Below are positions 24,623-50,713 of a stretch of 64,000 bases of DNA, one piece after another. Both the position numbers and the translations under genes were made by a program. This DNA comes from Victivallales bacterium. Lineage in GTDB: Bacteria; Verrucomicrobiota; Lentisphaeria; Victivallales; G963678815. The stretch lies in contig OY787460.1 in assembly GCA_963678815.1 (NCBI GenBank), forward strand, positions 7,031,503 to 7,095,502. The letters run 5' to 3'. Position 1 is the stretch's first letter. Every line of letters starts with the position of its first letter. Below the pieces are notes generated by a model. The model did not search any database. It saw only the letters and a list, made by a program, of their open reading frames with translations, and was not told where the DNA came from.

Positions 24623-25834
24623 TTAAAACGGCAACGGCTTCACGGACTTGCCGTCCTTGTTCCTGCGGCATTTTGAAACATCTATAAAGATCAGCCATTT
24701 ACCTTTTTTCAGACAGCTCGCTACGATGGCGTTGCCTTCTAACACCGCCCGTTTGAACATACCCCTTTCGCCGTCATTGGTCACGGTTGTGGAATTCATA
24801 ATCAGCAGGTCATGGGCGGAAACAGGGGCCATCACTTTTTTGGCGCTTCCGGCATTTTGAATAACATTGATCCCAGCCGGATAATTTTTCCTTTTCAGCC
24901 AGCAGGCCACGAATGCGTGTCCCGGAATAATGATTATTACCGGATGCAAACCGGCGTTTTCCCATATCGCGGCCTCGAGCACGGCCAGGTCAAGACAAGT
25001 TCCCTGCTTATATTTCAGCACGTCGTCATGGGAACGGATCTTCTGTCCTTTCTCGAAGGAGGCCGGAACGGTGATGTAACCGATGTCCAGATCTTTGTTC
25101 ATGGTCCGGTGAATCGCCGTCAACATGGCAAGCACACGCATTGGATCACCCGCCTGGTAATCCTCGAAGGAATCAATCCCCGATACTTCCTTGAGCCTCT
25201 TTCTGGACATGCTGACGATTTTCTTTACCGCCGCGGAGTTCGGCCTTACGAACGCACAGAGATTTTCAATGTTTTCCGGGTCCAGGAACCATTCGTTGAA
25301 GGCCAGAATGTCAACCTTCGAGGTCGATGCGTAAAGGGTTTCCTTTGAATCCTTAATGGTCACCACCAGGGCGGCCGAAAGCCGCTCTTCGACCTCCTTG
25401 AACGCCTTGTGCCGGATCGGGATATGAATGTTCCTGAGAGTTACGGATTTTCCCGCGCCGATTGACGGTATGGTCTGGGTCCATTCCCCGGCATAGTCGT
25501 CCGGACTCAACTTTACGGTCACCAGCAGGTTCGGGGTCGCGGTATTGCCGTTATTGGTAACGGTAATGCTCTTTACAAGCTGGTCGCCGAGGTGGACCAG
25601 GAAATAGTTGAACATCGGCTCATAGACAATTTTTACCTTCAGGTCTTTAGCCTTCACGGTTTCTTTCGGGGCCGGAACCGGAGCTTTTTTTACCGGAATC
25701 GGATACTTTCTCACCTTCCCCATCGGTTTAGGGTTCTTGTACATGCTGTTAAGCGCGTCCTCATAATCGTCCGCAACCGCGCCGATCACCATTGACGCCA
25801 CCGCCATCAAACCCAATACAATCTTTCTCTTCAT
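24623..25834 (-). CDS. Secreted transglutaminase-like (Cys-His-Asp papain-fold) domain protein
   Basis: It has a signal peptide. 'QGTCLDLAVLEAAIW' supplies the catalytic Cys and 'IPGHAFVACWL' the His. Its N-terminal roughly 55 aa are near-identical to the neighbouring gene 25831..28269. It overlaps the upstream gene by 4 nt. Confidence 0.5.
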   Translation of the reverse strand: MKRKIVLGLMAVASMVIGAVADDYEDALNSMYKNPKPMGKVRKYPIPVKKAPVPAPKETVKAKDLKVKIVYEPMFNYFLVHLGDQLVKSITVTNNGNTATPNLLVTVKLSPDDYAGEWTQTIPSIGAGKSVTLRNIHIPIRHKAFKEVEERLSAALVVTIKDSKETLYASTSKVDILAFNEWFLDPENIENLCAFVRPNSAAVKKIVSMSRKRLKEVSGIDSFEDYQAGDPMRVLAMLTAIHRTMNKDLDIGYITVPASFEKGQKIRSHDDVLKYKQGTCLDLAVLEAAIWENAGLHPVIIIIPGHAFVACWLKRKNYPAGINVIQNAGSAKKVMAPVSAHDLLIMNSTTVTNDGERGMFKRAVLEGNAIVASCLKKGKWLIFIDVSKCRRNKDGKSVKPLPF

Positions 25835-28269
25835 TTTTTATCCTTTATTTTATTTAACATTTCCAAAGCTGATTTTTTCCAGTATTCATCATCAGTACTA
25901 TCATAGCATTTCTGGTACCAGAATCTTGCTTTTTCATTGTTTTTTGCTATACCGTAACCGCCTTCGTAATAGATATATCCAAAATCATACATTGCATGTT
26001 CAAGTCCTTTGTTGGCGGCCTTTTCATACCATTCAACGGCCTTGACATAATTTTTTGCCACCCCCGAACCTGAATAATACATCGCACCAATAAAAAACGC
26101 AGCGCTCACGTGACCTTTGTCAGCGGCTTTTCTGTACCACTCTAATGCTTTTTCATAGTCCGAACTCAATAATCCGATGCAATACGTAGCCAAGATATTA
26201 CCATTGTCATAAGACTTTTGAAACCAGAGCATTGCCTTGACGCCGTCCTCTTTACAGCCAACGCCGGTAGTATATGCTCTTCCGGTTATATATTGAGCGG
26301 TTGCATCGCCATTTTCCGCCAAACTTAAAACACCGGGAAATGATTCCTTGCAGATTTTTTCAGTTTTTTCTTTTTTTTCTTTCTTATAATTTAAAAATCC
26401 ATACATCTTGTAATACGCTTTTAAATATATTGCGGGAGGATAATCCGCCGCAGCTGATTGCTCCAGATATTTTTTCTCGAGTTTTTTATCATATTTTTCA
26501 GCCGTTCCGTATCGATAAGCCAATGCCATTTGTCCCTGACCTGAAATAGAACTTTTTGATACATCCGGCTTAGAATATCTGGATTTACTCAAAACGGGAG
26601 CAAGGGCAACGCGGAAGCCCAGATCGAGGTGCTGGCCCGACGGCGTGCGCCAGAGACTATAAGTTGACCGGCAGCGCCTGACGATGCAGGACCAGCTGCC
26701 GCCGGAAATCACACGGTCCGAGCCAGTACTGGGCCCTACAGGATCGGTCCGGGAATTGTTGTCGAGTTTGCCAAACCAGTCATTACACCACTCCCAAACG
26801 TTCCCACTCATATCATGAATACCAAGTTCATTACCACTCTTAGACCCCACCGCGTGCGTTTTTTTACCGCTGTTGTCTTTATACCAGCCAACACGATCAA
26901 GATCATTGCTGCCGCTGTACTTATAACCTTTGCCTTTATTCCCTCCTCGCGCCGCATATTCCCATTCCGCTTCCGTAGGAAGACGATAAACATAGCCTTC
27001 CAGTAGACGGCCAGCGGCACGCTCGCGTTCCGTAAGCTTCTCGCAGAACTTTACCGCGTCATTCCAGCTTACTTGTTCTACAGGATTGCTGTTTCCTTTG
27101 AAATGACTCGGATTTGTTCCTATAAGTGTCTGGTATTCTTTTTGCGTTACTTCATACTTCCCGATCCAAAAGCCCTTGCTGATGGTTACACGATCCACCG
27201 GCCCTGTTTCAGCTGTCCCCATCATGAAGCTGCCGGAAGCCACGTAGACTAATTTCATTCTGAGTTCCGGCACCGAAAATGACTTATCCTTGGCTGACTT
27301 TTTTTTCGTTTTATTGATTTTCGTGATACCCGCCTGATCCATCCAGTCTTTACCATAAAAGCGTTTAATATGCTCATCCGTGTAGAAAACAACGCCAAAA
27401 TTTTTGAAATTACGGGGTCTGCTCCAGGCGATAGGAACAATATCGCCCTTTCCGCTTAAACCGCCTCTATAGACGTAATCAAGCGTTTTTTCAGTAAGTG
27501 TTTCACCGGGTTTTATGGGCTTTGTGCCAGTGCTTGGACTTGTAAATATTTTCAAATCTTCCACATAACCCTCTTTTATCAAGAGATTCAGTCCGGCGGC
27601 GCCGTCAGGCGTTGGGAATTTATCATTATGGTCAAGAGCATATTGCATCAAAATAAGGCCAATACAAAGCAAATCGCTGGAAGCATTACTTCTCGTTGTT
27701 TCAAGTTTGTGCTGGGCCTGATGGATCTTGGCGATGCCTGCTTTTCCCAGCCAGTCTTTACCGGTGAAACTTTTAACATTTCCGTCCGTGTAGAGGACAT
27801 TTCCGTAATCCTCGAATTTATCAGAATTGTCCCAGGCGATAGCCGCAATACCGTCACTTTTTTTCAATCCGCCTCTATAGATATAACTATATAAATTTAT
27901 GTCCGAAGCTTTTTCTTTCAGATATTTTTCCTTTTTCAATAATTCCAGTCCTTCATAGTCATTGAGAAAAGGATATTTACCGTCATGGTCCGCGGCATAA
28001 TTATTCAGGGCCGAACCGATTTGTTTCAGGTTACGGATACTTATTTTTTTTATTTTGTCCAAATATGATCTGATATTGTCATTGTCGGCAGATTTTTTCG
28101 GAGTTGCCTCCGGGAGCGTTTTTTTAACGGGAACCGGATGCTTCCTGACTTTACCTATTGGCTTGGAATTCTTGTACATGCCATTAAGCGCGTCCTCGTA
28201 ATCGTCCGCAATTACGCCAGCCGCAACCGACGCCACCACCAGCAAACTCAAGACGATTTTTCTATTCAT
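25831..28269 (-). CDS. Secreted protein with two leaderless DUF1559-like (H-X9-DG) domains, an FGE-sulfatase (SUMF1-like) domain that retains both active-site-position cysteines, and C-terminal Sel1 repeats
   Basis: It has a signal peptide. 'LKQIGSALNNY...YTDGNVKSF' and '...FYTDEHIKRF' are DUF1559-like. The FGE domain reads 'WIGKYEVTQKEYQ...LPTEAEWEYAARGG...GNVWEWCND...GGSWSCIVRRCRS'. Sel1 repeats read 'AMYYSGSGVAKNYVKAVEWYEKAANKG'. Confidence 0.7.
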   Translation of the reverse strand: MNRKIVLSLLVVASVAAGVIADDYEDALNGMYKNSKPIGKVRKHPVPVKKTLPEATPKKSADNDNIRSYLDKIKKISIRNLKQIGSALNNYAADHDGKYPFLNDYEGLELLKKEKYLKEKASDINLYSYIYRGGLKKSDGIAAIAWDNSDKFEDYGNVLYTDGNVKSFTGKDWLGKAGIAKIHQAQHKLETTRSNASSDLLCIGLILMQYALDHNDKFPTPDGAAGLNLLIKEGYVEDLKIFTSPSTGTKPIKPGETLTEKTLDYVYRGGLSGKGDIVPIAWSRPRNFKNFGVVFYTDEHIKRFYGKDWMDQAGITKINKTKKKSAKDKSFSVPELRMKLVYVASGSFMMGTAETGPVDRVTISKGFWIGKYEVTQKEYQTLIGTNPSHFKGNSNPVEQVSWNDAVKFCEKLTERERAAGRLLEGYVYRLPTEAEWEYAARGGNKGKGYKYSGSNDLDRVGWYKDNSGKKTHAVGSKSGNELGIHDMSGNVWEWCNDWFGKLDNNSRTDPVGPSTGSDRVISGGSWSCIVRRCRSTYSLWRTPSGQHLDLGFRVALAPVLSKSRYSKPDVSKSSISGQGQMALAYRYGTAEKYDKKLEKKYLEQSAAADYPPAIYLKAYYKMYGFLNYKKEKKEKTEKICKESFPGVLSLAENGDATAQYITGRAYTTGVGCKEDGVKAMLWFQKSYDNGNILATYCIGLLSSDYEKALEWYRKAADKGHVSAAFFIGAMYYSGSGVAKNYVKAVEWYEKAANKGLEHAMYDFGYIYYEGGYGIAKNNEKARFWYQKCYDSTDDEYWKKSALEMLNKIKDKK

Positions 28270-28522
28270 TTTCCGCCTTTATCTTATTTAACATTCTCAA
28301 GGCATTTTCATATCCATTATCATAAGCCTTCTGAAACCAGTATTTTGTTTTCAAATGATCTTTTGCTATGCCCAGCCCATCATAAAATAACACTCCAATG
28401 CTATACATCGCGGTTTTACTACCTTTCCCGATGGCCTTTTTATACCATTTATTGCTTTGGTATAGTCCTTTGCAACTCCCTAAACACCATCGTAGTATAA
28501 ACATAATACTTTGCGGATGCAT
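28262..28522 (-). other. Out-of-frame continuation of the kinase 28449..31118 C-terminus. These are the terminal Sel1 repeats, displaced by a frameshift that may be authentic or a sequencing error.
   Basis: The alternative-frame peptide 'KWYKKAIGKGSKTAMYSIGVLFYDGLGIAKDHLKTKYWFQKAYDNGYENALRMLNKIKAENE' matches the canonical C-termini of paralogs (…WFQKSYDN…MLNKL / …WYQKAYDNGDKNAKEKLDKLK). The in-frame ending '...KYYVYTTMVFRELQRTIPKQ' does not match them. Confidence 0.6.
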
Positions 28523-31118
28523 CGCCTTTATCGGCTGCTTTTTTATACCATTTCATCGCTTTAGTATAATTTTTCCCCACGCCATAACCGCAACGGTAAA
28601 AATTTCCTATCTTACACATTGCATGAGTATCACCTTTGTCCGCGGCTTTTCTATAAAACTCTAATGCTTTTACATAGTCCTTTTTATTGAACCATATATT
28701 TCCGGTATCATTCAAGGATGAGATTTCTATTTCCATTATAACCTGCTTGGGGATGCCAGCTTTCTCCATCCAATCTTTACCGGTAAAGCTTTTTATTCTT
28801 CCGTCAGAATAGAAAACGCTACCGAAATTCTTAAAATTGCCGGGTTTGTCCCAGGCAACAGGTTTGCCTTCAGAATCTTTTGCCATCAAACCATTCCGAT
28901 AAACATAATCCACGGTTGTTTCTGTCCATGCTTCACCTTTTTTTGCCGGTTTGGTATTAGTATTGGGGCAAGTTAAAATCCTGGGATCTTTTATGTAGTA
29001 TTCTTTCCTCAATACATCCAGACCGGCCGCACCGTTGGTGGCTGGAAAGTGCTGAGCAAAGTCATCAGAATACATTTTCAGAGCGAGTCCAATCTTTTTT
29101 AAATTTATTCTCGCAGCCTCCAACTTACGTGTTGTTTTAATGTCGTTATCAGTTTTTTCTACCGCTTTGGCAATGAGGGTTACGGCTTTCCTGTAGGATG
29201 ACAGGGCTTTATCCCAGTCTTCGGAGGATACGGCGTTGTCGGCGCTGGATACTGCAAGCCGGGCTTCGGCCCAGTCCGCGCCGCCGAATTTGTCGATATC
29301 GGCGCGTTTCACTTTAGCGAGTTGGGCTTCATATTGTTTTTTGATAATAGCCAGTGCGGAAGTTCCAATAGCATAGTTCTTTGCGTGTTTGTATTCCTTT
29401 TCAGACGCCGTGAAGCTTTTCTTAGCTCCCGAAAAATCACCTTTTGCAAGCTTGGCCTTGCCATCATCTTCAAGGCTCTTTGCGCTGTTCCAGATACTTT
29501 TCGCCAGACTCGAAGCGTTGCTCTTTTCCGCGCTTTGTTTCTCCTGTTCCGATCTTTTTGAGGATACCATTGCCGAATTTCGTTCCGAATCGAGCTTTAC
29601 AAGCTTTCTGCATCCGGTTATTACTTCCTGGTATTTACCTAAAGCATTGCCGTAAGATTTGGCGCCAAACAAGGTTTTTGCGGTATTGAGTTTCAGTTTC
29701 AGAGTATCTTTTTTCTTTTGAAATCCGTGTTCGGGAGAAATGCGGCTTAACCTTTCGAACACCATTTCCGCGCGGCTCTTGACCGGAGCGGTTTCGGCGA
29801 GTCCGGCTTTTTCCTTGATCCTGTCCTGCATCGTCCGGGCGTAGGAGTTTTGAGGGTCGATCGACAGTATTTCCGAGGCCGCCGCCGAAGCCGCCGACAA
29901 GTCCCCTTTTCTGAATGAAGACTTCAGTTTCTTTTTAAGGGAATTGAGTTTTTCCTGCGTCTCTTTCGCGAGCTGTTCCTGACGCTGGCGTTCTTCCTCT
30001 GCCGCTTTTTCCCTGGCCAATTGTTCGGCTTTGGACTTCTGGACTTCCCGGTATTTGGTGTAGCCGAAATATCCGCCAGCGCCTATAAGGACAAGAATAA
30101 TCAGCAGAACCGCAATTATTTTGCCGCCGCCGGAGGATTTAGAGGCGCGTTTTACTTTGACTTTTCCCCTCATAGCATTGATAAACTCGTCACAGGAAGC
30201 GTAGCGGTCTGAGCCTTTTTTGGCTAACGCCTTCATCAAAAGCGCGTTTTGTTTTTTATTCAATTGGGGCAAAGGTTCCGGCATCCGGTTTTCCACCAGG
30301 TTCAACATCAAACCGGCGTCGCCCGATTCGAAAACCGACTGGAACGGTACGCCGCCGCTGATCAACTCATAAAGCATACAGGCCAGCGCGTACTGATCGG
30401 TTTCGGGTCCCTGGTTTTTACCCGCCCACTGCTCGGGGGCCATGTAGGGGCGCGTACCGGAGGTGTCGAACTGTTCCCGGGAGACCCGGCCCATCGAACT
30501 GCGGATTTCGGCGGCAAGCCCGAAGTCGAGAACCTTAACTTCTCCATCCGGGGAAATCATGATATTCGACGGTTTTACGTCGCGATGGATGATCTTTTTC
30601 GAATGCGCGAAGTCCAACGCCTGGGCGACTTTTCCGCAGATGTCCAGAGCTTTGTCCAGCGGTACTTTTTTATCCGGGAACTGTTTGCGCCAGTTGGACA
30701 GTGTCGAGCCATTGACATACTCCATCACCACCAGATAACTGTCGGGAAAAACCCGTAAATGTTCCTGGGCGGCGGCGTCAACCTTTTCCACCTTGTGGAG
30801 ATGTTCCAGCGAGGCTATGTATTGGTGTTTCAGCTTGGAGACCATTGCAAAGTTGGACCGGACGTTTTCCAGCTCTTCCGGAACCGCCGAGATCATCGGC
30901 GGCAATACTTTCAATGCGACATTGATCCCTGCCACGGTATCATGCGCCCGGTATACCGCGCCGAACCCGCCAGCTCCCAGTTGCTCGACAAGTTCATAAC
31001 GGTCAATGCGCCCTAACGATCCGGGAGAATTCCCGTTTTCGGTAAGCATGTTGCCAATGGATAAATCCAGATTTTCGCCACTTTCCGTTTTAAAATCGCC
31101 AATATTACTATTATCCAT
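28449..31118 (-). CDS. Hanks-type Ser/Thr protein kinase (receptor-like) with one TM helix, a coiled-coil/TPR-like ectodomain, a leaderless DUF1559-like domain and Sel1 repeats. The 3' end is frameshifted and the true C-terminus is probably at 28262.
   Basis: Kinase motifs GAGGFGAVYRA, VALKVL, IIHRDVKPSNIM, DFGLA and GTRPYMAPEQ are all present. The TM helix is IIAVLLIILVLIGAGGYFGY. The DUF1559-like segment reads 'LKKIGLALKMY...FYSDGRIKSF'. The N-terminal roughly 650 aa are identical to gene 47603..50713. Confidence 0.8.
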   Translation of the reverse strand: MDNSNIGDFKTESGENLDLSIGNMLTENGNSPGSLGRIDRYELVEQLGAGGFGAVYRAHDTVAGINVALKVLPPMISAVPEELENVRSNFAMVSKLKHQYIASLEHLHKVEKVDAAAQEHLRVFPDSYLVVMEYVNGSTLSNWRKQFPDKKVPLDKALDICGKVAQALDFAHSKKIIHRDVKPSNIMISPDGEVKVLDFGLAAEIRSSMGRVSREQFDTSGTRPYMAPEQWAGKNQGPETDQYALACMLYELISGGVPFQSVFESGDAGLMLNLVENRMPEPLPQLNKKQNALLMKALAKKGSDRYASCDEFINAMRGKVKVKRASKSSGGGKIIAVLLIILVLIGAGGYFGYTKYREVQKSKAEQLAREKAAEEERQRQEQLAKETQEKLNSLKKKLKSSFRKGDLSAASAAASEILSIDPQNSYARTMQDRIKEKAGLAETAPVKSRAEMVFERLSRISPEHGFQKKKDTLKLKLNTAKTLFGAKSYGNALGKYQEVITGCRKLVKLDSERNSAMVSSKRSEQEKQSAEKSNASSLAKSIWNSAKSLEDDGKAKLAKGDFSGAKKSFTASEKEYKHAKNYAIGTSALAIIKKQYEAQLAKVKRADIDKFGGADWAEARLAVSSADNAVSSEDWDKALSSYRKAVTLIAKAVEKTDNDIKTTRKLEAARINLKKIGLALKMYSDDFAQHFPATNGAAGLDVLRKEYYIKDPRILTCPNTNTKPAKKGEAWTETTVDYVYRNGLMAKDSEGKPVAWDKPGNFKNFGSVFYSDGRIKSFTGKDWMEKAGIPKQVIMEIEISSLNDTGNIWFNKKDYVKALEFYRKAADKGDTHAMCKIGNFYRCGYGVGKNYTKAMKWYKKAADKGDASAKYYVYTTMVFRELQRTIPKQ

Positions 31119-31143
31119 ATATTTATTCCATCCTGAATTATAA
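29160..31143. repeat. Copy 1 of a roughly 2 kb direct repeat (copy 2 at 48755-50738). About 1.8 kb is identical and a junction of about 180 nt is about 88% identical.
   Basis: Identical six-frame ORFs recur at a constant offset of 19595 nt (for example 29322..29561 and 48917..49156). I compared the junctions directly. Confidence 0.85.
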
Positions 31144-32890: not shown

Positions 32891-32916
32891 TACGTAACAA
32901 AAACATCCACCTCACG
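32891..32916 (-). promoter_or_regulatory. Candidate ECF-type promoter, motif copy A (CGTGAGG-N15-CGTA), 39 nt upstream of the 31149..32852 start
   Basis: An RBS (AGGAGGTG) lies between the motif and the start codon. Confidence 0.5.
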
Positions 32917-43665: not shown

Positions 43666-43691
43666 TACGTAAGCAAAAAAACCGCCTCACG
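43666..43691 (-). promoter_or_regulatory. Candidate ECF-type promoter, motif copy B (CGTGAGG-N15-CGTA), 34 nt upstream of the 42421..43632 start
   Basis: An RBS (GGAGGTTT) follows. Confidence 0.5.
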
Positions 43692-43739: not shown

Positions 43740-45338
43740 TTAATCATTCAGGAAATACTGTTTAAACGTAGTAACTTCGGCAATTCCCGACTCAGGGGGT
43801 AATTTTGTTTCAGGCTCGAGCCAATACCATTTCTCATTTTCTTCAACCAGGGCAAACGAATCATGCTTATACCGGATGGCCCATTTTTTCGAGGTATTTA
43901 CCTCTACCGCGGTCAAGGGAAGCCATTTATTGATGATGATGTATGATTCGGGAATACTGTCATATCTGGAAACGGCAATTCCGGAAATAGCGTCTTTAAC
44001 CTGATTTTTTGTCAAGTCATGTACCGAGTCAAATGACGAACTGCCCCGTTCAATATCATTCAGATAGGTTTTGTAAACCCTTAATTTCAAAACAATGTTA
44101 TTGTTGACGGCAATACCGCCCAAGACAAGATCGATTTCCGATTGTACGGGAATGGACTGTTTTTTTGCCCCGATCCGCTGATTGTCGATAAATGAGCCGT
44201 TGGAAGAAGTGTCCGTAACCCAGGCCATATCATCGTCCACCCCTATTTTGCAGTGCAGTCCGCTGATCCGGCAGTTTTCGTAAATCATTCTCTGCCGGTC
44301 CCACGGCGGACTTTCATCCGGGCCGGGAAGTTTTCTGATAATAACGTCGGCGTCCCGGGAGCGTCCGAAAGTAATTTCTCCGTTCAGCAGATGGATTCGC
44401 CGTCCTGAATTCGTGAACAGCGTCAAACTGCTGTATTTTTTGCTCGGGGCGGGAGGAATCGTCAATTTGGGCCTTTGCTGATATCCTATCCCGGATAGCG
44501 GAATAGCGGAAAAGAGGATAAGTTCCGTCCACAGGTCGGTTTTTTTCAGACTGTCGAGCAGGTCGTTCAGCGAACCGCCGGAATCCTGGGCGTTTCGCAG
44601 AATGTCCAGGGCCAAATTCGGATCGCCGCCATAGCCTTCCTGCTTGATGTCGCCGATAGAGATTGTTAAATTGTCCAGAATTTTGTCCTTTGACGTATGC
44701 TGGGAATACACATCTATGGTGATCTGCTGATCAAAGCACATCAATTGTCCGTTCATTTCGTAGGAAAAATAAAAATCAACGGCCTGGGCCGTACCGATAT
44801 TGGCAAGTTTAGGTTTGTAGTTTACATAAACTTCCCTCGGCGCTGAAAGCCGGGCAAAACGCAGCGGCTGTTCCTTGAAGGATGCTTCATAGGGAAATTT
44901 CAGGAACAATCGAAAATTAGCTGCGTTCCGCGATTCCCTGGAAACCGGGGTAAACCTGAAGGATATCGATGAAGTGGTTTCCGCGATAAAAATAGCCGAT
45001 CCCTTGTTCCATTCACACTGGAAATGGGGACAATCCGAGCTGAATCCGCCGTATACCGGTTCAACTTTCGGTGCGGGTCCAGGCTGCCGGACGTCATTGC
45101 CGGTCAGGGGATTATCACTGTCAACCAGGGTCTTCTGCATTGACACGATCTTTTCCCCAACGGTATCATCGGTTTTTGCAGTTTGATTCCGTGCGCTTTC
45201 ATTTACAGTATCAGGTTTTCCTTCAACTGTTTCTGAAAGTTTTTGTTCAGCTCCTGCCGATGTCAGCTTTGTTCCGCAGCTCATACAAACGACATCCGAG
45301 GCGCCAACTGAACTTTCACATTCAGGGCAGACAGGCAT
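43740..45338 (-). CDS. N-terminal zinc-ribbon plus C-terminal FHA domain protein
   Basis: The zinc ribbon is 'CPECESSVGASDVVCMSCG'. The FHA domain reads 'GEITFGRSRDADVIIRK...ISGLHCKIGVDDDMAWVTDTSSNGSFIDNQRI'. Confidence 0.7.
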   Translation of the reverse strand: MPVCPECESSVGASDVVCMSCGTKLTSAGAEQKLSETVEGKPDTVNESARNQTAKTDDTVGEKIVSMQKTLVDSDNPLTGNDVRQPGPAPKVEPVYGGFSSDCPHFQCEWNKGSAIFIAETTSSISFRFTPVSRESRNAANFRLFLKFPYEASFKEQPLRFARLSAPREVYVNYKPKLANIGTAQAVDFYFSYEMNGQLMCFDQQITIDVYSQHTSKDKILDNLTISIGDIKQEGYGGDPNLALDILRNAQDSGGSLNDLLDSLKKTDLWTELILFSAIPLSGIGYQQRPKLTIPPAPSKKYSSLTLFTNSGRRIHLLNGEITFGRSRDADVIIRKLPGPDESPPWDRQRMIYENCRISGLHCKIGVDDDMAWVTDTSSNGSFIDNQRIGAKKQSIPVQSEIDLVLGGIAVNNNIVLKLRVYKTYLNDIERGSSSFDSVHDLTKNQVKDAISGIAVSRYDSIPESYIIINKWLPLTAVEVNTSKKWAIRYKHDSFALVEENEKWYWLEPETKLPPESGIAEVTTFKQYFLND

Positions 45339-45475: not shown

Positions 45476-47338
45476 TCAATCGCATGGCTTTGCCAAGACA
45501 ATTCTGAACCCAAGATTACGGTTTTTGTACGATTTATTGTGCTCAATCCGATTTGCGCTGCGGCATGAACCCGCCGGACTGTCCCAGGCTCCCCCCCGGG
45601 CAATCCTTGTATATGCGGATGCCTTGCCGACAGGATCGGTACTTGCCGAGTCCGCATAATTGCTTTTTGAATCATTGCACCATTCCCACACGTTGCCGTG
45701 CATGTCATGGATACCCCACGCGTTAGGCTGACGTGAACCCGCTTTCTCCGGAACGTCATCTTTTGAGCCGAAATTAGCGAATTCGCCAAGTTCATCGATC
45801 ATGCTGCCGCAGGAATAATCGGTTTTGGTTCCGGCCCGGCAGCAGTATTCCCATTCCGCTTCGGTCGGGAGCCGGAATACATATCCGGCGGGAATGCTGG
45901 ATTTCACATACTTGTTTAACTTCCGGCAGAACCGTTCCGCGTCAGTCCATGAAATATCCCTGACAGGTTTGTCTCCCGTATCAATTTTTTTGTCGCTCTC
46001 TTTGCTGCTGTCATCGCTCCCGGAGAAACTCAGAAGCGGTTTATTGCCGGTTTCCTTCTTTTTTTCTTCCGTAAGTGCCTTCATATCGCCAGACATCACG
46101 GCGTTATATTCCGCTTCCGTGATTTCTTTTTTGGATATCCAGAATTTATTTGAGATTTTCACTGTCCTTACCGGTTTTTCGTCGGAATTTCCTTTTTCCG
46201 ATCCCATCTGGAATTTCCCGGGGGATATTTCAACAAATTCTATCCCTATCAGCTTTTTCTCGGGATTTTTCACCGGACTGGCCACCGGGACCGGAGGTTG
46301 CGGTTTAACTCCTTTTTCTTCACTGCCGCCGCCAGACATGCCGATCCTTATCGCCTCAAAACAAATTATAAACGCAATGATTACAGCAGCAGCTATAGCC
46401 ATTACCCGATACCACGAGCGGCGTTCACCCGCATTCATGGCTTCTTTCAATTCCGCGGCGAACCCTCCGGCAGTGGGACGGTTGTTGGGATTCTTGTCCA
46501 GCGCCGCCATAACCACCGAGGCTATCCGTTTGTTAAGGCGCGGAGCGGCCTTGCTCAAAGGTTCAGGTTCTTCCGTTCTCAGCACTTCCAGGGTTTCGTG
46601 TACGGTCAATCCTTCCACCTGGAATGGAAATTTCCCGGAAAAAGCCTCGTAAGCCATGATCCCGAGCGCATAGACATCTCCGGACGGAGCATTCGGGACA
46701 TCAGTATTTCTGGAGGTTTTCTCCGGCGGAATATATGCGGGAGTACCGGAAATATATCCTGTTTGAGTATGGTATATCAGGCTGTCCGCTTCCATGGGCT
46801 TCATTAATCCAAAGTCCAGGAGCTTGATTTCGTCATGACTGTCAAGCATTATGTTGTTCGGTTTTATGTCGCGATGGGTCAACCCCTTATCATGCAGTTT
46901 GGCGAGAATTTCCGCGACTCTGGCAATGATGGCAATCTTCCTTTTCAGTGTCAGGTCTTTTCTGAATACTTCACATAATGTCTGTCCTTCCACGAACTCC
47001 ATGGCGAAATACAGCCAGCCGTCATCATTCCCGCAGTCGAACACCTTTACGCAGCCGGGAATATCCAGCCCCGCCTGAATATGGATTTCCCGCTGAAAAC
47101 GTTCCTGCTCTTCCGAAGTTTGATTTACGTCACGCTTCAGTATTTTCAAGGCAACCTTGCGCTTGAGCTTGGTGTCGTGAGCGCGAAATACGGTTGCCAT
47201 GCCCCCTTCGCCAACGCGTTCCAGATCCTCATATTTCCCCAGCTTCGCGCCGTCAGGCGGACATATACAGGTAGTGGTCTCTGATTTGTCCTCTAAAGCG
47301 GCCAGTTTTACCGTCTTCTTTTCTGGGTCATTGTTCAT
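45476..47338 (-). CDS. Hanks-type Ser/Thr receptor kinase with a TM helix and a C-terminal FGE-sulfatase-like domain. The FGE domain lacks the Cys pair, so it is probably a non-catalytic sensor.
   Basis: Kinase motifs GEGGMATVFRAHD, VALKILK, LTHRDIKPNNIMLD, DFGLMK and GTPAYIPPEK. The TM helix is WYRVMAIAAAVIIAFIICF. The FGE domain reads 'WISKKEITEAEYNAV...LPTEAEWEYCCRAG...GNVWEWCND...GGAWDSPAGSCRS'. Confidence 0.8.
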   Translation of the reverse strand: MNNDPEKKTVKLAALEDKSETTTCICPPDGAKLGKYEDLERVGEGGMATVFRAHDTKLKRKVALKILKRDVNQTSEEQERFQREIHIQAGLDIPGCVKVFDCGNDDGWLYFAMEFVEGQTLCEVFRKDLTLKRKIAIIARVAEILAKLHDKGLTHRDIKPNNIMLDSHDEIKLLDFGLMKPMEADSLIYHTQTGYISGTPAYIPPEKTSRNTDVPNAPSGDVYALGIMAYEAFSGKFPFQVEGLTVHETLEVLRTEEPEPLSKAAPRLNKRIASVVMAALDKNPNNRPTAGGFAAELKEAMNAGERRSWYRVMAIAAAVIIAFIICFEAIRIGMSGGGSEEKGVKPQPPVPVASPVKNPEKKLIGIEFVEISPGKFQMGSEKGNSDEKPVRTVKISNKFWISKKEITEAEYNAVMSGDMKALTEEKKKETGNKPLLSFSGSDDSSKESDKKIDTGDKPVRDISWTDAERFCRKLNKYVKSSIPAGYVFRLPTEAEWEYCCRAGTKTDYSCGSMIDELGEFANFGSKDDVPEKAGSRQPNAWGIHDMHGNVWEWCNDSKSNYADSASTDPVGKASAYTRIARGGAWDSPAGSCRSANRIEHNKSYKNRNLGFRIVLAKPCD

Positions 47339-47391
47339 TATATCTGTTTACGCTTCATTTTGTATTTCATTTTGCCCCATGTAACATATAT

Positions 47392-47417
47392 TACGGCTGA
47401 ATTATATCAACATCACG
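47392..47417 (-). promoter_or_regulatory. Candidate ECF-type promoter, motif copy D (CGTGATG-N15-CGTA), 54 nt upstream of the kinase start at 47338
   Basis: The surrounding 40 nt (TGTAACATATATTACGG..ATTATATCAACATCACGG) are about 90% identical to copy E at 50740-50780. Confidence 0.5.
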
Positions 47418-47472
47418 GTTTTTATAAAAAAATCTGCACATATTTCCCTCTGGGCGAGGTTTCACCGGGCCG

Positions 47473-47602: not shown

Positions 47603-50600
47603 TCATTTTTTTATTATTGGGCCAAGCACGACGCGGAAACCCAGGTCGCAGGGCGTGTACCCAGGCGAATTGCCGCCCCGAATCGCCGACCGGCAGCGCC
47701 TGGCGCGGCTGCCCCAACTGCCGCCGCGATTCACGCGGGCCGAGCCTGTACCAGGCCCTGCAGGATCGCTTTGTGTACCGCTGCCATATTCCCCATACCA
47801 GTCATTACACCACTCCCACACATTGCCACTCATATCGTATAGCCCAAGTTCATTACCACTCTTAGTCCTAACTTCATGCGTTTTCTTTCCACTGTTGCCA
47901 TCGTACCAGCCCACACGGTCAAGATCATCACTCCCGCTGTATTTGTAACCACGGCTCTTAGCCCCCCCACGCGCTGCGTATTCCCACTCAGCCTCCGTGG
48001 GTAAACGGTATGCATAACCTTCCGGCAAACGGCCAGCAGCACGTTCACGTTGCGTAAGCCTTTCACAGAATTTTACTGCGTCATTCCAACTAACTTGTTC
48101 CACCGGATTGTTGCTGCCTTTGAAATGACTCGGATTCGTTCCCATAAGATCCTGGTACTCGCTTTGCGTTACCTCGTACTTTCCGATCCAGTAGCCACGG
48201 CTGATCGTTACGCGATGCACCGGCTTCTCATCACTGTTGCCGTCATTCGAGCCCATATTAAAGCTACCTGGGGAAACATACGCAAACTTCATATCCAGTC
48301 CGGGTACCGTCCAGGAATTATCTTTAACGGGACCATCCCACAAGCTTTTCGTGAAATTCTCGATTTCCACCGAAAGTTTGGACAAGCTATTTTTCGCGGT
48401 AGCGTCAAGATACGTGGTTGAAACACTGCGTAATTCCTTCAACGCCGCATCGCAGAACTTACGGGCGGACGGAACATTACTCTTTGACAGCGCCTTGGCA
48501 TAATATACCCGCGCGGTTTTCATAGACTTTTTATAATCGGCTTTCGCGGCAACTCGCTTACGCGCAAACTCAGCTCCGCTTCGAGCATCGTTATTATTCT
48601 CGTATCCGGGGATCTGCATTGCTTCTTTATATTTTGCTTCAGCATCATCCCACTGTTTATTATTCAGCAGTTTTTTCGCTTCAGCCATGAGCCTATCATA
48701 TTTGGCCTTGCGCTGGGCGCGGAGTATTGCCGCAATATCGTTTTGGGTTTTTGGCACCGCTTTGGCAATGAGGGTTACGGCTTTCCGGTAGGATGACAGG
48801 GCTTTATCCCAGTCTTCGGAGGAAACCGCGTTGTCGGCGCTGGATACTGCAAGACGCGCTTCGGCCCAGTCCGCGCCGCCGAATTTGTTTAGGTCAGCGC
48901 GTTTCACCTTGGCTAATTGGGCTTCATATTGTTTTTTGATAATAGCCAGTGCGGAAGTTCCAATAGCATAGTTCTTTGCGTGTTTGTATTCCTTTTCAGA
49001 CGCCGTGAAGCTTTTCTTAGCTCCCGAAAAATCACCTTTTGCAAGCTTGGCCTTGCCATCATCTTCAAGGCTCTTTGCGCTGTTCCAGATACTTTTCGCC
49101 AGACTCGAAGCGTTGCTCTTTTCCGCGCTTTGTTTCTCCTGTTCCGATCTTTTTGAGGATACCATTGCCGAATTTCGTTCCGAATCGAGCTTTACAAGCT
49201 TTCTGCATCCGGTTATTACTTCCTGGTATTTACCTAAAGCATTGCCGTAAGATTTGGCGCCAAACAAGGTTTTTGCGGTATTGAGTTTCAGTTTCAGAGT
49301 ATCTTTTTTCTTTTGAAATCCGTGTTCGGGAGAAATGCGGCTTAACCTTTCGAACACCATTTCCGCGCGGCTCTTGACCGGAGCGGTTTCGGCGAGTCCG
49401 GCTTTTTCCTTGATCCTGTCCTGCATCGTCCGGGCGTAGGAGTTTTGAGGGTCGATCGACAGTATTTCCGAGGCCGCCGCCGAAGCCGCCGACAAGTCCC
49501 CTTTTCTGAATGAAGACTTCAGTTTCTTTTTAAGGGAATTGAGTTTTTCCTGCGTCTCTTTCGCGAGCTGTTCCTGACGCTGGCGTTCTTCCTCTGCCGC
49601 TTTTTCCCTGGCCAATTGTTCGGCTTTGGACTTCTGGACTTCCCGGTATTTGGTGTAGCCGAAATATCCGCCAGCGCCTATAAGGACAAGAATAATCAGC
49701 AGAACCGCAATTATTTTGCCGCCGCCGGAGGATTTAGAGGCGCGTTTTACTTTGACTTTTCCCCTCATAGCATTGATAAACTCGTCACAGGAAGCGTAGC
49801 GGTCTGAGCCTTTTTTGGCTAACGCCTTCATCAAAAGCGCGTTTTGTTTTTTATTCAATTGGGGCAAAGGTTCCGGCATCCGGTTTTCCACCAGGTTCAA
49901 CATCAAACCGGCGTCGCCCGATTCGAAAACCGACTGGAACGGTACGCCGCCGCTGATCAACTCATAAAGCATACAGGCCAGCGCGTACTGATCGGTTTCG
50001 GGTCCCTGGTTTTTACCCGCCCACTGCTCGGGGGCCATGTAGGGGCGCGTACCGGAGGTGTCGAACTGTTCCCGGGAGACCCGGCCCATCGAACTGCGGA
50101 TTTCGGCGGCAAGCCCGAAGTCGAGAACCTTAACTTCTCCATCCGGGGAAATCATGATATTCGACGGTTTCACGTCGCGATGGATGATCTTTTTCGAATG
50201 CGCGAAGTCCAACGCCTGGGCGACTTTTCCGCAGATGTCCAGAGCTTTGTCCAGCGGTACTTTTTTATCCGGGAACTGTTTGCGCCAGTTGGACAGTGTC
50301 GAGCCATTGACATACTCCATCACCACCAGATAACTGTCGGGAAAAACCCGTAAATGTTCCTGGGCGGCGGCGTCAACCTTTTCCACCTTGTGGAGATGTT
50401 CCAGCGAGGCTATGTATTGGTGTTTCAGCTTGGAGACCATTGCAAAGTTGGACCGGACGTTTTCCAGCTCTTCCGGAACCGCCGAGATCATCGGCGGCAA
50501 TACTTTCAATGCGACATTGATCCCTGCCACGGTATCATGCGCCCGGTATACCGCGCCGAACCCGCCAGCTCCCAGTTGCTCGACAAGTTCATAACGGTCA

Positions 50601-50713
50601 ATGCGCCCTAACGATCCGGGAGAATTCCCGTTTTCGGTAAGCATGTTGCCAATGGATAAATCCAGATTTTCGCCACTTTCCGTTTTAAAATCGCCAATAT
50701 TACTATTATCCAT
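47603..50713 (-). CDS. Hanks-type Ser/Thr receptor kinase with a TM helix, a coiled-coil/TPR-like ectodomain and a C-terminal FGE-sulfatase-like domain. The first active-site Cys position is Ser.
   Basis: The N-terminal roughly 650 aa are identical to 28449..31118. The C-terminal FGE domain reads 'WIGKYEVTQSEYQ...LPTEAEWEYAARGG...GNVWEWCND...GGSWGSRARRCRS'. Confidence 0.8.
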   Translation of the reverse strand: MDNSNIGDFKTESGENLDLSIGNMLTENGNSPGSLGRIDRYELVEQLGAGGFGAVYRAHDTVAGINVALKVLPPMISAVPEELENVRSNFAMVSKLKHQYIASLEHLHKVEKVDAAAQEHLRVFPDSYLVVMEYVNGSTLSNWRKQFPDKKVPLDKALDICGKVAQALDFAHSKKIIHRDVKPSNIMISPDGEVKVLDFGLAAEIRSSMGRVSREQFDTSGTRPYMAPEQWAGKNQGPETDQYALACMLYELISGGVPFQSVFESGDAGLMLNLVENRMPEPLPQLNKKQNALLMKALAKKGSDRYASCDEFINAMRGKVKVKRASKSSGGGKIIAVLLIILVLIGAGGYFGYTKYREVQKSKAEQLAREKAAEEERQRQEQLAKETQEKLNSLKKKLKSSFRKGDLSAASAAASEILSIDPQNSYARTMQDRIKEKAGLAETAPVKSRAEMVFERLSRISPEHGFQKKKDTLKLKLNTAKTLFGAKSYGNALGKYQEVITGCRKLVKLDSERNSAMVSSKRSEQEKQSAEKSNASSLAKSIWNSAKSLEDDGKAKLAKGDFSGAKKSFTASEKEYKHAKNYAIGTSALAIIKKQYEAQLAKVKRADLNKFGGADWAEARLAVSSADNAVSSEDWDKALSSYRKAVTLIAKAVPKTQNDIAAILRAQRKAKYDRLMAEAKKLLNNKQWDDAEAKYKEAMQIPGYENNNDARSGAEFARKRVAAKADYKKSMKTARVYYAKALSKSNVPSARKFCDAALKELRSVSTTYLDATAKNSLSKLSVEIENFTKSLWDGPVKDNSWTVPGLDMKFAYVSPGSFNMGSNDGNSDEKPVHRVTISRGYWIGKYEVTQSEYQDLMGTNPSHFKGSNNPVEQVSWNDAVKFCERLTQRERAAGRLPEGYAYRLPTEAEWEYAARGGAKSRGYKYSGSDDLDRVGWYDGNSGKKTHEVRTKSGNELGLYDMSGNVWEWCNDWYGEYGSGTQSDPAGPGTGSARVNRGGSWGSRARRCRSAIRGGNSPGYTPCDLGFRVVLGPIIKK

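What the first reader, a model, noticed from the sequence alone, without database searches (positions are those of the whole stretch)
24623..50713. Island of paralogous receptor kinases with combinatorial Sel1, FGE and DUF1559 ectodomains, plus secreted domain-sharing proteins
Five active-looking Hanks kinases (K, HRD and DFG are all present) share one layout: kinase, a roughly 20 aa linker, a single TM helix, a coiled-coil region and a variable ectodomain. The ectodomains are assembled from three recurring modules. Sel1 repeats range from 2 to about 25 copies. FGE-sulfatase-like domains occur in three kinases. Leaderless DUF1559 domains occur in two. The same modules recur in a kinase-less secreted protein (25831..28269). 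Kinase operons begin with zinc-ribbon proteins (SPFH at 31149; FHA at 43740). This is a strikingly modular sensory system whose ligands are unknown. Given the flanking glycosidases, they may be glycan or mucin-derived signals.
Basis: partly seen in the sequence, partly recalled or inferred. Interest (0 to 1): 0.6.

Follow-up and report, generated by a model that had tools for sequence, protein, structure and literature searches.

The report
Receptor-kinase regulon with swapped sensor domains
A probable Lentisphaerota genome carries five membrane receptor kinases that have exchanged their outer sensor domains, and these kinases sit in a conserved gene set that shares one special promoter and includes an unusual sigma factor fused to a phospho-threonine-binding (FHA) domain.

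Summary
Five intact Hanks-type Ser/Thr kinases lie on the minus strand, each with one TM helix. Their C-terminal ectodomains are built from Sel1 repeats, FGE-like domains and a leaderless pilin-head (DUF1559-type) module.

Corrections:
- FGE-like domains occur in two kinases (K4, K5) plus the secreted protein g2, not in three kinases.
- The layout is not uniform.
- K1's 3' end is decayed.

New findings:
1. K1 and K5 share a 1.8-kb tract with 3 mismatches, then have unrelated ectodomains. The kinase tree and the ectodomain tree disagree, so domain swapping is supported.
2. The island is an expanded version of a gene set conserved in Lentisphaerota: an ECF sigma fused to FHA, a Zn-ribbon-FHA protein, a Zn-ribbon-SPFH protein, LpoB-like proteins, and three kinase orthogroups.
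3. A promoter-like motif, GCGTGAG-N16-CG(T/A)A, precedes five island operons (0.12 sites expected by chance). Variants of it precede orthologous genes in three relatives.
4. The FGE-like domains are closest to the DGR variable protein TvpA. No reverse transcriptase or template repeat lies in the window.

Best reading: several receptor kinases signal through FHA adaptors to an ECF sigma, which drives a self-regulating regulon. The ligands are unknown, and the glycan idea has no support. This is a new variant of a known kind.

The parts
50752..50776 (-). Promoter-like motif GTGATG-N15-CGTA, 38 nt upstream of K5
   Evidence: 5 sites found, 0.12 expected by chance. The surrounding 39 nt match the K4 site at 35 of 39 positions.
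47603..50713 (-). K5: kinase (aa 41-307), TM (334-353), helical stalk (to about aa 800), TvpA-type FGE-like domain (813-1029)
47645..47713 (-). K5 segment equivalent to a DGR variable region (aa 1001-1023, between GGSW and LGFR)
   Evidence: Codon-position pattern against g2 is inverted relative to the scaffold.
48734..50736 (-). Direct repeat copy 2 (5' part of K5 plus 23 nt upstream)
   Evidence: 98.8% identity over 2003 bp; 3 mismatches from -23 to +1796
47392..47416 (-). Promoter-like motif, 53 nt upstream of K4
45476..47338 (-). K4: kinase (36-290), TM (312-334), FGE-like domain (367-614)
   Evidence: Full-length orthologue in L085 at 45% identity.
43740..45338 (-). g9: Zn-ribbon, beta-rich region of unknown fold, canonical FHA domain (GR, SxxH and NG all present), C-terminal domain
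   Evidence: only 5 clusters among 5.8e9 proteins
43666..43690 (-). Promoter-like motif, 33 nt upstream of g8
42421..43632 (-). g8: LpoB-like protein with an N-terminal signal or anchor and a C-terminal TM helix
41399..42373 (-). g7: predicted lipoprotein with no family hit, conserved next to g8 in L082
36238..41316 (-). K3: kinase (45-311), TM (342-363), stalk (to about aa 795), about 23 Sel1 repeats
32963..36232 (-). K2: kinase with a long activation-loop insert, TM (339-362), unassigned region (about aa 420-690), pilin-head module (691-824), 7 Sel1 repeats
32891..32915 (-). Promoter-like motif, 38 nt upstream of g4
31149..32852 (-). g4: double Zn-ribbon, SPFH/Band 7 domain, long charged helical tail
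   Evidence: Orthologues: 61% (L085), 47% (L082), 24% (L. profundi).
28449..31118 (-). K1: kinase, TM and stalk near-identical to K5, then pilin-head module (665-792) and 2 Sel1 repeats
29139..31141 (-). Direct repeat copy 1 (5' part of K1 plus 23 nt upstream)
28272..28448 (-). Decayed remnant of two further Sel1 repeats and the C-terminal cap of K1 (two frameshifts and an in-frame TAG)
25831..28269 (-). g2: signal peptide, 2 pilin-head modules (66-179, 191-318), FGE-like domain (340-555), 4 Sel1 repeats
26623..26691 (-). g2 segment equivalent to a DGR variable region (aa 527-549)
24623..25834 (-). g1: signal peptide shared with g2, Ig-like region, transglutaminase-like Cys-His core; homologous to the N-terminus of NCBIfam ProA
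23552..24622 (+). ECF-type sigma-70 factor with a C-terminal FHA domain (sigma-FHA)
   Evidence: (TIGR02937 50.2 bits vs 42.9 cut-off)
23383..23407 (-). Fifth promoter-like motif, 44 nt upstream of the probable TTG start (23338) of the 845-aa ORF
19395..23338 (-). Two overlapping ORFs of unknown function behind the fifth motif. The first has a weak HEAT hit and a hydrophobic C-terminus. The second is 469 aa and may contain an HD domain.
   Evidence: Membership in the regulon rests on the motif alone.

Best explanation
The region is a lineage-specific expansion of a conserved Lentisphaerota signalling regulon.

**Proposed mechanism**
1. Five single-pass Hanks-type receptor kinases expose interchangeable ligand-binding modules to the periplasm or cell surface. 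The modules are a TvpA-type C-type-lectin/FGE-like domain, Sel1 arrays and a pilin-head DUF1559 module.
2. Ligand binding activates the cytoplasmic kinase, which autophosphorylates. Candidate sites include the conserved N-terminal tandem motif [LV]S[IV]G[DN]MxT.
3. The phospho-threonines are read by the FHA proteins of the cluster: the Zn-ribbon-FHA protein g9 and the ECF sigma-FHA fusion.
4. The sigma factor is thereby recruited and activated. It transcribes the island's own operons from GCGTGAG-N16-CG(T/A)A promoters, which creates a feedback loop.
5. The Zn-ribbon-SPFH protein probably scaffolds the kinases in the membrane.
6. g2 is a soluble paralogue of the ectodomains and may act as a co-receptor or decoy.

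**Evolution:** new receptor specificities arise by duplication, gene conversion of the kinase-stalk half, and swapping of the 3' ectodomain cassettes.

**Shown here:** the domain architecture, the module swapping, the conserved synteny and the shared promoter motif.

**Inferred:** the topology, phospho-docking, which sigma factor reads the motif, the ligands and the physiological output.
For: **Domains**
- Kinase, FGE, Sel1, FHA, SPFH and sigma domains are supported.
- The catalytic motifs and single TM helices are visible in the translations.

**Module swapping**
- K1 and K5 differ at 3 positions from -23 to +1796. Identity then decays to about 85% and is lost after +1980.
- Module identities conflict with the kinase tree.

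**Conserved synteny**
- L082 carries sigma-FHA, a group-A kinase, g1, an FGE protein, g9, g8, g7, a group-B kinase and g4.
- L085 carries g9, g4 and sigma-FHA, followed by two kinase-FGE genes.
- Lentisphaera profundi carries sigma-FHA, a K5-type kinase (kinase-stalk-FGE), a K4-type kinase (kinase-FGE), a g4-like gene and a caspase.

**Sigma-FHA family**
- There are 28 homologous clusters, all with Sigma70_r2 plus FHA. Every named source is Lentisphaerota.

**Promoter motif**
- 5 sites in the window against 0.12 expected. All lie on the coding strand, 33-53 nt upstream of start codons.
- Variants lie upstream of orthologous genes in L082, L085 and L. profundi.
- The shape (a -35-like block, a T-rich spacer, then CGTA/CGAA) resembles ECF promoters. 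This rests on my own knowledge of the sigmaW/X/M consensus.
- No anti-sigma gene is present. Direct kinase-to-ECF regulation has precedent in PknT/EcfP and PknS/EcfK (PMC13147305, PMC7826278).

**N-terminal motif**
- In the six-frame translation of the window it occurs only in the group-A kinases. It recurs in their orthologues.
Against: - No biochemical data exist.
- In the sigma-FHA family the canonical phosphate-binding Arg of FHA (the GR motif) is present in only 5 of 28 members. In the window protein it is Ser. Phospho-threonine binding by the sigma factor is therefore uncertain.
- The sigma 2.2 region lacks only the first Asp of DxxDxxQE and has no conserved ECF43-like Thr.
- The sigma-FHA gene itself has no copy of the motif. 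One sampled homologue (L088) has no kinase within 10 kb.
- The motif patterns for the relatives were derived after inspecting those loci, so their statistics are inflated.
- No PP2C phosphatase gene is in the window.
- The motif could be read by another sigma factor or a repressor.
- Periplasmic location of the ectodomains is inferred only from the single TM helix and from the signal peptide on the paralogue g2.
Confidence: 0.45

Rival explanations
1. Glycan or mucin sensing. The kinases would detect carbohydrate breakdown products and regulate the neighbouring glycosidase loci.
For: - Glycoside hydrolase genes, GntR regulators and N_methyl/DUF1559 pseudopilin genes flank the island.
- The pilin-head module of K1, K2 and g2 is related to those pseudopilins.
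- C-type-lectin folds can bind sugars (general knowledge).
Against: - The promoter motif occurs only inside the island and not at the glycosidase genes.
- Syntenic clusters in relatives are not next to glycosidases in L082, L085 or L. profundi.
- The partners that are conserved are FHA, SPFH, LpoB-like and caspase proteins.
Confidence: 0.12
2. A surface-surveillance or conflict system against phages, predators or competitors. Hypervariable lectin-like receptors would detect foreign surfaces and trigger a defensive regulon. The FGE-like ectodomains of K5 and g2 could be remote targets of a diversity-generating retroelement (DGR) located elsewhere in the genome.
For: - All three FGE-like domains match the DGR variable protein TvpA far better than they match true FGEs.
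- Between g2 and K5, the 23 codons equivalent to a variable region differ at codon positions 1/2/3 in 14/11/7 cases. The 196 scaffold codons differ in 29/32/88 cases (Fisher p = 1.6e-4).
- Caspase genes adjoin the cluster in L082 and L. profundi, and in the latter the caspase gene has the promoter motif.
- g1 is homologous to the N-terminus of the NCBIfam 'anti-phage protein ProA'.
- Kinase-CLec proteins are known DGR targets in cyanobacteria (PMC7517822). FGS domains are known as conflict-system sensors (PMC7159879).
Against: - The window contains no reverse transcriptase motif, no template repeat and no GC hairpin after the variable-region equivalents. The same scan did find TR/VR pairs in four control loci.
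- The corresponding segment of K4 is conserved with its orthologue (17/23 aa against 97/202 in the scaffold).
- The third-base pattern between g2 and K5 is only partly of the NNC/NNT type.
- PADLOC returns only generic kinase hits.
- The ProA match is 230 bits against a 1500-bit cut-off.
Confidence: 0.2
3. Cell-envelope homeostasis or stress signalling. The kinases would monitor peptidoglycan or outer-membrane state, as PASTA kinases do. The LpoB-like lipoproteins and the SPFH protein would be envelope partners, and an ECF sigma would be the classic envelope-stress output.
For: - LpoB-like hits in g8 and additional LpoB genes in L082.
- Sel1 repeats are listed among peptidoglycan-associating domains (PMC7159879).
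- An SPFH membrane scaffold is present, and ExbB/ExbD genes lie in the L085 cluster.
- The output is ECF-type.
Against: - The LpoB hits are weak (28 bits; far below the NCBIfam cut-off).
- No peptidoglycan synthase or hydrolase genes are in the island.
- The rapid turnover of ectodomains fits changing external ligands better than a conserved envelope cue.
Confidence: 0.2
4. The near-identical 2-kb repeat, and therefore the K1/K5 pair, is an assembly artefact, and the island has fewer kinases than it appears to.
For: A 1.8-kb tract with 3 mismatches, 19.6 kb from its copy, is the kind of repeat that can be mis-joined.
Against: - Both copies run in frame into different, otherwise intact or recognisably decayed 3' parts.
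- Identity falls gradually (100%, 98%, 89%, 78%, then unrelated), as at a gene-conversion boundary.
- K3 is a third paralogue, diverged to 71% identity over the same stretch.
- The contig is reported as 8.6 Mb.
Confidence: 0.05

Closest known systems
Receptor Hanks kinase to ECF sigma pathways: PknT/EcfP (Vibrio parahaemolyticus) and PknS/EcfK (Xanthomonas citri), ECF43-type
   Same: - A transmembrane Ser/Thr kinase with a periplasmic repeat domain is encoded next to an ECF sigma factor, with no anti-sigma factor.
- The kinase has an N-terminal extension before the catalytic domain (PMC13147305, PMC7826278).
   Different: - Here the sigma factor carries a C-terminal FHA domain, which those papers do not mention.
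- Several kinases from three orthogroups accompany one sigma factor.
- A second FHA protein and an SPFH protein are conserved partners.
- Sigma region 2.2 keeps one acidic residue and shows no conserved Thr.
Kinase-CLec (FGE-type) variable proteins of diversity-generating retroelements and their paralogues (cyanobacteria); Treponema TvpA
   Same: - An N-terminal Ser/Thr kinase is grafted to a C-terminal FGE-type C-type-lectin domain.
- The proteins form paralogue families within a genome (PMC7517822).
- TvpA is the best solved match for all three domains here.
   Different: - No reverse transcriptase or template repeat lies in the 64-kb window.
- These proteins are single-pass membrane proteins, whereas the cyanobacterial ones are mostly cytosolic.
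- In g2 the domain is internal rather than C-terminal.
Expanded membrane Ser/Thr kinases with periplasmic TPR/WD40 arrays in Planctomycetota (e.g. Ca. Uabimicrobium amorphum)
   Same: - Cytoplasmic kinase, one TM helix and long C-terminal periplasmic repeat arrays.
- Species-specific clades attributed to duplication or recombination (PMC11032199).
   Different: - Here the expansion is a small island embedded in a conserved regulon with an identifiable sigma factor and promoter motif.
- The ectodomains include FGE-like and pilin-head modules.
Type VI secretion threonine-phosphorylation pathway (PpkA, Fha1, TagR/Q/S/T)
   Same: A receptor Ser/Thr kinase, an FHA protein and periplasmic or lipoprotein partners.
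   Different: - No T6SS structural genes are in the window or in the related loci.
- The Pfam TssO hits on K1 and K5 (32 and 30.5 bits) cover only the TM helix plus the charged helix.
DUF1559 / prepilin-type N-terminal-methylation proteins of PVC bacteria
   Same: The ectodomain module aligns with the region just after the pilin helix of the window's own DUF1559 proteins. It also has a pilin-like fold.
   Different: - It has no prepilin leader and no hydrophobic helix.
- It is short (about 120 aa) and internal, fused to kinases, vWA proteins and others.

Membership tests
Hanks-type (eukaryote-like) Ser/Thr protein kinases | Pkinase domain above the Pfam gathering score | tested here: met
   All five score 152-165 bits against a 31.7-bit cut-off.
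Hanks-type (eukaryote-like) Ser/Thr protein kinases | Catalytic motifs: G-loop, VAIK Lys, HRDxKxxN, DFG, APE | tested here: met
   Read directly from the translations. K4 has GxGxxA and PPE variants.
Hanks-type (eukaryote-like) Ser/Thr protein kinases | Phosphotransfer activity | not testable with these tools
   Needs biochemistry.
Formylglycine-generating enzymes (catalytic FGE/SUMF1) | FGE-sulfatase domain above the Pfam threshold | tested here: met
   g2, K4 and K5 score 159-170 bits against a 23.3-bit cut-off.
Formylglycine-generating enzymes (catalytic FGE/SUMF1) | The two copper-binding catalytic cysteines (GGS-x2-C-x4-C) | tested here: not met
   K4 and K5 keep only the second Cys. g2 has both aligned (alignment), but the first lies in the hypervariable stretch.
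Formylglycine-generating enzymes (catalytic FGE/SUMF1) | Closest relatives are true FGEs | tested here: not met
   TvpA scores E 6e-42, 3e-33 and 3e-20. The best true FGE scores 4e-21, 1e-17 and 1e-13.
DGR variable proteins | FGE-type C-type-lectin domain | tested here: met
   Sequence similarity to TvpA (2Y3C).
DGR variable proteins | A template repeat whose mismatches fall at adenines, plus a reverse transcriptase | tested here: not met
   None found in the 64-kb window. Control loci L006, L049, L068 and L070 scored positive with the same scan. The rest of the genome could not be searched.
DGR variable proteins | Hypervariability confined to the variable region, mainly at codon positions 1 and 2 | tested here: inconclusive
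   Present between the paralogues g2 and K5 (p = 1.6e-4). Absent between K4 and its orthologue. Positive selection would give the same pattern.
Sel1-like repeat proteins | Sel1 repeats above the Pfam threshold | tested here: met
   K1 46.5, g2 88.7, K2 200.9 and K3 591.8 bits against a 30.7-bit cut-off. The DNA shows a 108/111-nt periodicity.
DUF1559 (SBP_bac_10) / pseudopilin-like proteins | Pfam DUF1559 hit above threshold | tested here: inconclusive
   Window copies: only K2, at 21.4 vs 23.3 bits. 8 of 10 homologues of the module pass (30-45 bits).
DUF1559 (SBP_bac_10) / pseudopilin-like proteins | Pilin-type fold of the globular part | tested here: met
DUF1559 (SBP_bac_10) / pseudopilin-like proteins | Prepilin leader and N-terminal methylation motif | tested here: not met
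   Absent from all four module copies. Present in the flanking full-length genes.
Kinase-regulated ECF sigma factors (ECF43-like) | ECF sigma co-encoded with Ser/Thr kinase(s) and no anti-sigma factor | tested here: met
   TIGR02937 scores 50.2 against a 42.9 cut-off. Kinases are adjacent in 4 of 5 sampled neighbourhoods.
Kinase-regulated ECF sigma factors (ECF43-like) | Sigma 2.2 acidic DxxD replaced by uncharged residues with a conserved Thr | tested here: inconclusive
   The first Asp is absent in all 28 homologues. The second Asp is retained, and no conserved Thr is seen.
Kinase-regulated ECF sigma factors (ECF43-like) | [quoted passage not shown] | not testable with these tools
   Needs biochemistry.
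Anti-phage protein ProA (NCBIfam NF058533) | Full-length match above the curated cut-off | tested here: not met
   g1 scores 230 bits against 1500 and covers only profile positions 10-313 of 1903. No PADLOC hit.
T6SS threonine-phosphorylation pathway | Linkage to T6SS core genes | tested here: not met
   No T6SS families in the window or in loci L082, L085 and L087.

The most novel reading that the evidence does not exclude
The sigma-FHA protein would be a new class of ECF sigma factor. It would be controlled by FHA-mediated docking on phosphorylated receptor kinases. Several kinases would feed into it, and their lectin-like ectodomains would be swapped by recombination and possibly diversified by a remote DGR. 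Together this would form a bacterial, receptor-repertoire-style surface-surveillance regulon with its own promoter code.
Probability: 0.2. Interest if true: 0.75.

Novelty: new variant of a known kind. Interest (0 to 1): 0.5.

Why it matters
For most bacterial receptor Ser/Thr kinases, neither the ligand nor the downstream output is known.

This cluster supplies, in one place, the main elements of a testable pathway:
- a set of paralogous receptors whose sensor halves have been exchanged;
- two FHA readers;
- a dedicated sigma factor;
- a recognisable promoter motif that defines the regulon in at least four Lentisphaerota genomes.

If the sigma-FHA link holds, it adds a new way of controlling ECF sigma factors.

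The cluster also extends the TvpA-type lectin scaffold to periplasmic receptor kinases in the PVC group. That scaffold is otherwise known from DGR hypervariation.

Finally, it shows a leaderless pilin-head domain used as a receptor ectodomain.

Tried and rejected
**Searches that returned little or nothing**
- Exact look-ups of window proteins found nothing, although 100% identical proteins on an 8.6-Mb contig are in the protein database. The source genome and its remaining sequence could therefore not be read.
- A genome-contig scan with K4 gave only distant relatives (30% or less over the full length).
- A metagenome scan with the g9 alignment gave one 4-kb locus.
- Four literature searches for 'ProA' as an anti-phage protein found nothing relevant.
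- PADLOC gave only generic kinase models.
- PDB sequence searches found nothing for g1, g4, g8, the K2 middle region and the 469-aa ORF.
- There are no tRNA genes and no Rfam matches.

**Structure predictions**
- The AF2 model of g9 had pLDDT 46 and was not used for fold search.

**DGR tests in the window**
- All were negative: YxDD reverse-transcriptase motif, sliding identity of the variable-region equivalents, an adenine-mismatch scan with positive controls, and a downstream hairpin search.

**Other**
- The generic sigma-70 promoter and terminator scan was uninformative.
- A T6SS link suggested by the TssO Pfam hits was rejected because no T6SS genes are present.


Full report
**What is there**

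All large ORFs between 24.6 and 50.7 kb lie on the minus strand. In transcription order they are:
- K5 (47603-50713)
- K4 (45476-47338)
- g9 (43740-45338)
- g8 (42421-43632)
- g7 (41399-42373)
- K3 (36238-41316)
- K2 (32963-36232)
- g4 (31149-32852)
- K1 (28449-31118)
- g2 (25831-28269)
- g1 (24623-25834)

Pfam results:
- A strong Pkinase domain in K1-K5.
- FGE-sulfatase in K4, K5 and g2 only.
- Sel1 in K1, K2, K3 and g2.
- A double Zn-ribbon plus SPFH in g4.
- A Zn-ribbon plus FHA in g9.
- A weak LpoB-like hit in g8.

The translations show the full set of catalytic motifs in all five kinases. Each has one TM helix 20-30 aa after the kinase domain. g1 and g2 share a signal peptide and about 60 N-terminal residues (58% identity).

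**The DUF1559 claim**

Pfam gives only a sub-threshold hit, in K2. Other evidence:
- The four copies of the ~120-aa module (two in g2, one each in K1 and K2) align with the window's own N_methyl/DUF1559 pseudopilin genes. The aligned stretch begins just after the pilin helix (hhalign 89%, E 2e-6).
- A profile search of 1.84 billion representative proteins finds 1908 proteins with the module.
- 8 of 10 sampled proteins pass the Pfam DUF1559 threshold at internal positions. One is another kinase fusion and one is a vWA protein.

The module is therefore a widespread, leaderless pilin-head domain.

**Shuffling**

- A 2003-bp direct repeat (29139-31141 and 48734-50736) is 98.8% identical.
- From -23 to +1796 relative to the start codons there are only 3 mismatches. 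Identity then falls to about 85% and disappears after +1980. This looks like a recent gene-conversion or duplication tract inside an older homology.
- Beyond the repeat, K1 continues into a pilin-head module plus Sel1 that is 53% identical to the matching part of K2. K5 continues into more stalk, shared with K3, and an FGE-like domain 68% identical to that of g2.
- K1's far end is decayed. Two further Sel1 repeats and the conserved C-terminal cap survive only in other reading frames at 28272-28448.
- A kinase-domain tree that includes relatives resolves three orthogroups:
  - Group A: K1, K3, K5, a kinase in L082 and a 962-aa L. profundi kinase.
  - Group B: K2 and kinases in L082 and L085.
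  - Group C: K4, a kinase in L085 and a 618-aa L. profundi kinase.
- Ectodomains differ within groups A and B: FGE, DUF4384, Sel1, pilin-head plus Sel1, or none. Ectodomain swapping on a conserved kinase half is therefore supported.

**Conserved context**

The window's proteins exist at 100% identity on an 8.6-Mb NCBI/ENA contig. The DNA of that contig could not be fetched.

- **L082.** A 68%-identical g1 homologue led to this locus. It carries, in order, a divergent Sigma70_r2-FHA gene, a group-A kinase, g1, a stand-alone FGE protein, g9, g8, g7, a group-B kinase, an unknown protein and g4. A caspase-TPR gene and LpoB genes lie upstream.
- **g9.** The g9 family is rare, with 5 clusters among 5.8e9 proteins.
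- **L085.** Here g9 is followed by g4 (61% identity) and the sigma-FHA gene (54%). Two kinase-FGE genes follow.
- **Lentisphaera profundi.** This genome has sigma-FHA, an IS66 element, a K5-type kinase (kinase-stalk-FGE), a K4-type kinase (kinase-FGE), a g4-like gene and a caspase.
- **Sigma-FHA in the window.** It passes the NCBIfam ECF model.
- **Sigma-FHA family.** 28 homologous clusters all share the fusion. Every named source is Victivallales, Victivallaceae or Lentisphaera.
- **L088.** One sampled homologue has no kinase within 10 kb.

**A shared promoter motif**

- The regions upstream of K5 and K4 share a 39-nt element identical at 35 positions. The regions upstream of g4 and g8 share a second element.
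- Both fit GTGAKG-N15-CGTA. This pattern occurs five times in the window against 0.12 expected, and no shuffle of 100 reached five.
- All five sites are on the minus strand. They lie upstream of K5, K4, g8, g4 and a neighbouring 845-aa ORF, whose likely TTG start with a GAGGAA ribosome-binding site is 44 nt downstream.
- Related forms lie upstream of orthologous genes in relatives:
  - GCGTGAGA-N15-CGAA before g9, g8 and g4 in L082.
  - The same form before two operons in L085.
  - GTCAGA-N15-CGAA before the kinase operon, the g4-like gene and the caspase gene in L. profundi.
- Those patterns were fitted after inspection, so their statistics are inflated. The common geometry at orthologous positions still provides independent support.
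- A conserved -35-like block, a T-rich spacer and a CGTA/CGAA box is the shape of ECF promoters. This rests on my own knowledge of the sigmaW/X/M consensus.
- The only sigma gene in the cluster is sigma-FHA.

**The FGE-like domains**

- All three match the DGR variable protein TvpA (2Y3C) far better than they match true FGEs.
- K4 and K5 lack the first catalytic cysteine.
- Between the paralogues g2 and K5, the 23 codons between GGSW and LGFR are the equivalent of a DGR variable region. They differ at codon positions 1/2/3 in 14/11/7 cases. The 196 scaffold codons differ in 29/32/88 cases (Fisher p = 1.6e-4).
- The window has no reverse-transcriptase motif, no template repeat and no downstream hairpin. 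My adenine-mismatch scan did detect TR/VR pairs in four control loci.
- The same segment of K4 is conserved with its orthologue.
- The domains are therefore non-catalytic lectin-type binding modules. Past or remote DGR action on the K5/g2 type remains possible but unproven.

**Mechanism**

The best-supported model is a multi-receptor kinase pathway with FHA readers and an ECF sigma output that feeds back on its own operons.
- Precedents are PknT/EcfP and PknS/EcfK (PMC13147305, PMC7826278).
- A candidate docking site is the tandem N-terminal motif [LV]S[IV]G[DN]MxT. It is unique to the group-A kinases in the window and is conserved in their orthologues.

Caveats:
- The FHA domain of g9 is canonical. 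The sigma-FHA family lacks the phosphate-binding Arg in 23 of 28 members, including the window protein.
- Sigma region 2.2 is only partly ECF43-like.

**What the system responds to**

This remains open.
- The glycan idea has no positive support.
- Envelope-surveillance and conflict readings are each compatible with part of the evidence: LpoB-like proteins, Sel1, SPFH, neighbouring caspases, the TvpA-type lectin and the ProA-like N-terminal domain of g1.

**Novelty**

- Membrane Ser/Thr kinases with periplasmic repeat arrays and lineage-specific expansion are known in the PVC group (PMC11032199).
- Kinase-CLec fusions are known (PMC7517822).
- New here: the conserved Lentisphaerota regulon with its promoter motif, the ECF sigma-FHA fusion (not mentioned in the main text of the ECF classification paper), the pilin-head ectodomain, and the very recent gene-conversion tract.
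- I rate it a new variant of a known kind, of moderate interest.

Noticed in passing
window 28272-28448: Downstream of the K1 stop codon the DNA still encodes two Sel1 repeats and the C-terminal cap (…YWFQKAYDNGYENALRMLNKIKAENE) in other reading frames. They are interrupted by two frameshifts and a TAG. The old stop codon overlapped the g2 start codon.
   Followed up: yes
window 25680-25953 and 28113-28372: A duplicated unit (72% identical) joins the end of a Sel1 array to the signal peptide and N-terminus of the next gene. This explains why g1 and g2 share their first ~60 residues.
   Followed up: partly
window 24623-25834 (g1): Residues 85-402 match positions 10-313 of the 1903-position NCBIfam model 'anti-phage protein ProA' (E 4e-68, far below the family cut-off). 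The protein has a transglutaminase-like Cys-His core. No paper on ProA was found in the library.
   Followed up: partly
L081 1-11425: A distant g1 homologue (34% identity) begins with a Zn-ribbon instead of a signal peptide. It directly follows a Zn-ribbon-SPFH gene, in an operon with two AAA ATPases and several ~200-aa coiled-coil proteins. This suggests an older g1/SPFH partnership that does not involve kinases.
   Followed up: partly
window 23552-24622 and 28 homologues: In the sigma-FHA family the FHA 'GR' arginine is replaced by S, N or T in 23 of 28 members. SxxH and NG are conserved. A Lys often lies two residues further on.
   Followed up: partly
window 50714-50790 and 47339-47430: K5 and K4 belong to different kinase orthogroups (about 31% identical proteins). 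Even so, they have a near-identical 39-nt upstream element (35/39): CCGTGATGTTGATATAAT-N4-CCGTAATATATGTTACA.
   Followed up: yes
window 19395-23407: Two overlapping ORFs of unknown function lie behind the fifth promoter-like site. One is 845 aa from the probable TTG start at 23338, with a weak HEAT hit and a hydrophobic tail. The other is 469 aa with a faint HD-domain-like hit. They may belong to the same regulon.
   Followed up: partly
window 7512-8255, 10933-11664, 54499-55359, 62362-63051: Four prepilin-type (N_methyl, DUF1559-like) genes sit beside glycoside-hydrolase and CBM genes and GntR regulators. Their 5' ends share conserved DNA (8067-8220, 11476-11629 and 62948-63035).
   Followed up: no
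K1 and K5 aa 333-408: Pfam TssO (T6SS-iii) scores just above its gathering threshold (32 and 30.5 bits against 29.2) on the TM helix plus the charged helix. No T6SS genes are nearby, so the hit is probably compositional.
   Followed up: partly
L006, L049, L068, L070: My adenine-mismatch scan found clear DGR template/variable repeat pairs (83-100% of mismatches at A) next to FGE-like genes. The loci come from a cyanobacterium, a Cytophagia MAG, a Bacteroidia MAG and Methylumidiphilus. They were used only as positive controls.
   Followed up: no
L087 11265-13095 (Lentisphaera profundi): An IS66 element (TnpB plus a DDE transposase) sits between the sigma-FHA gene and the kinase-FGE genes.
   Followed up: no
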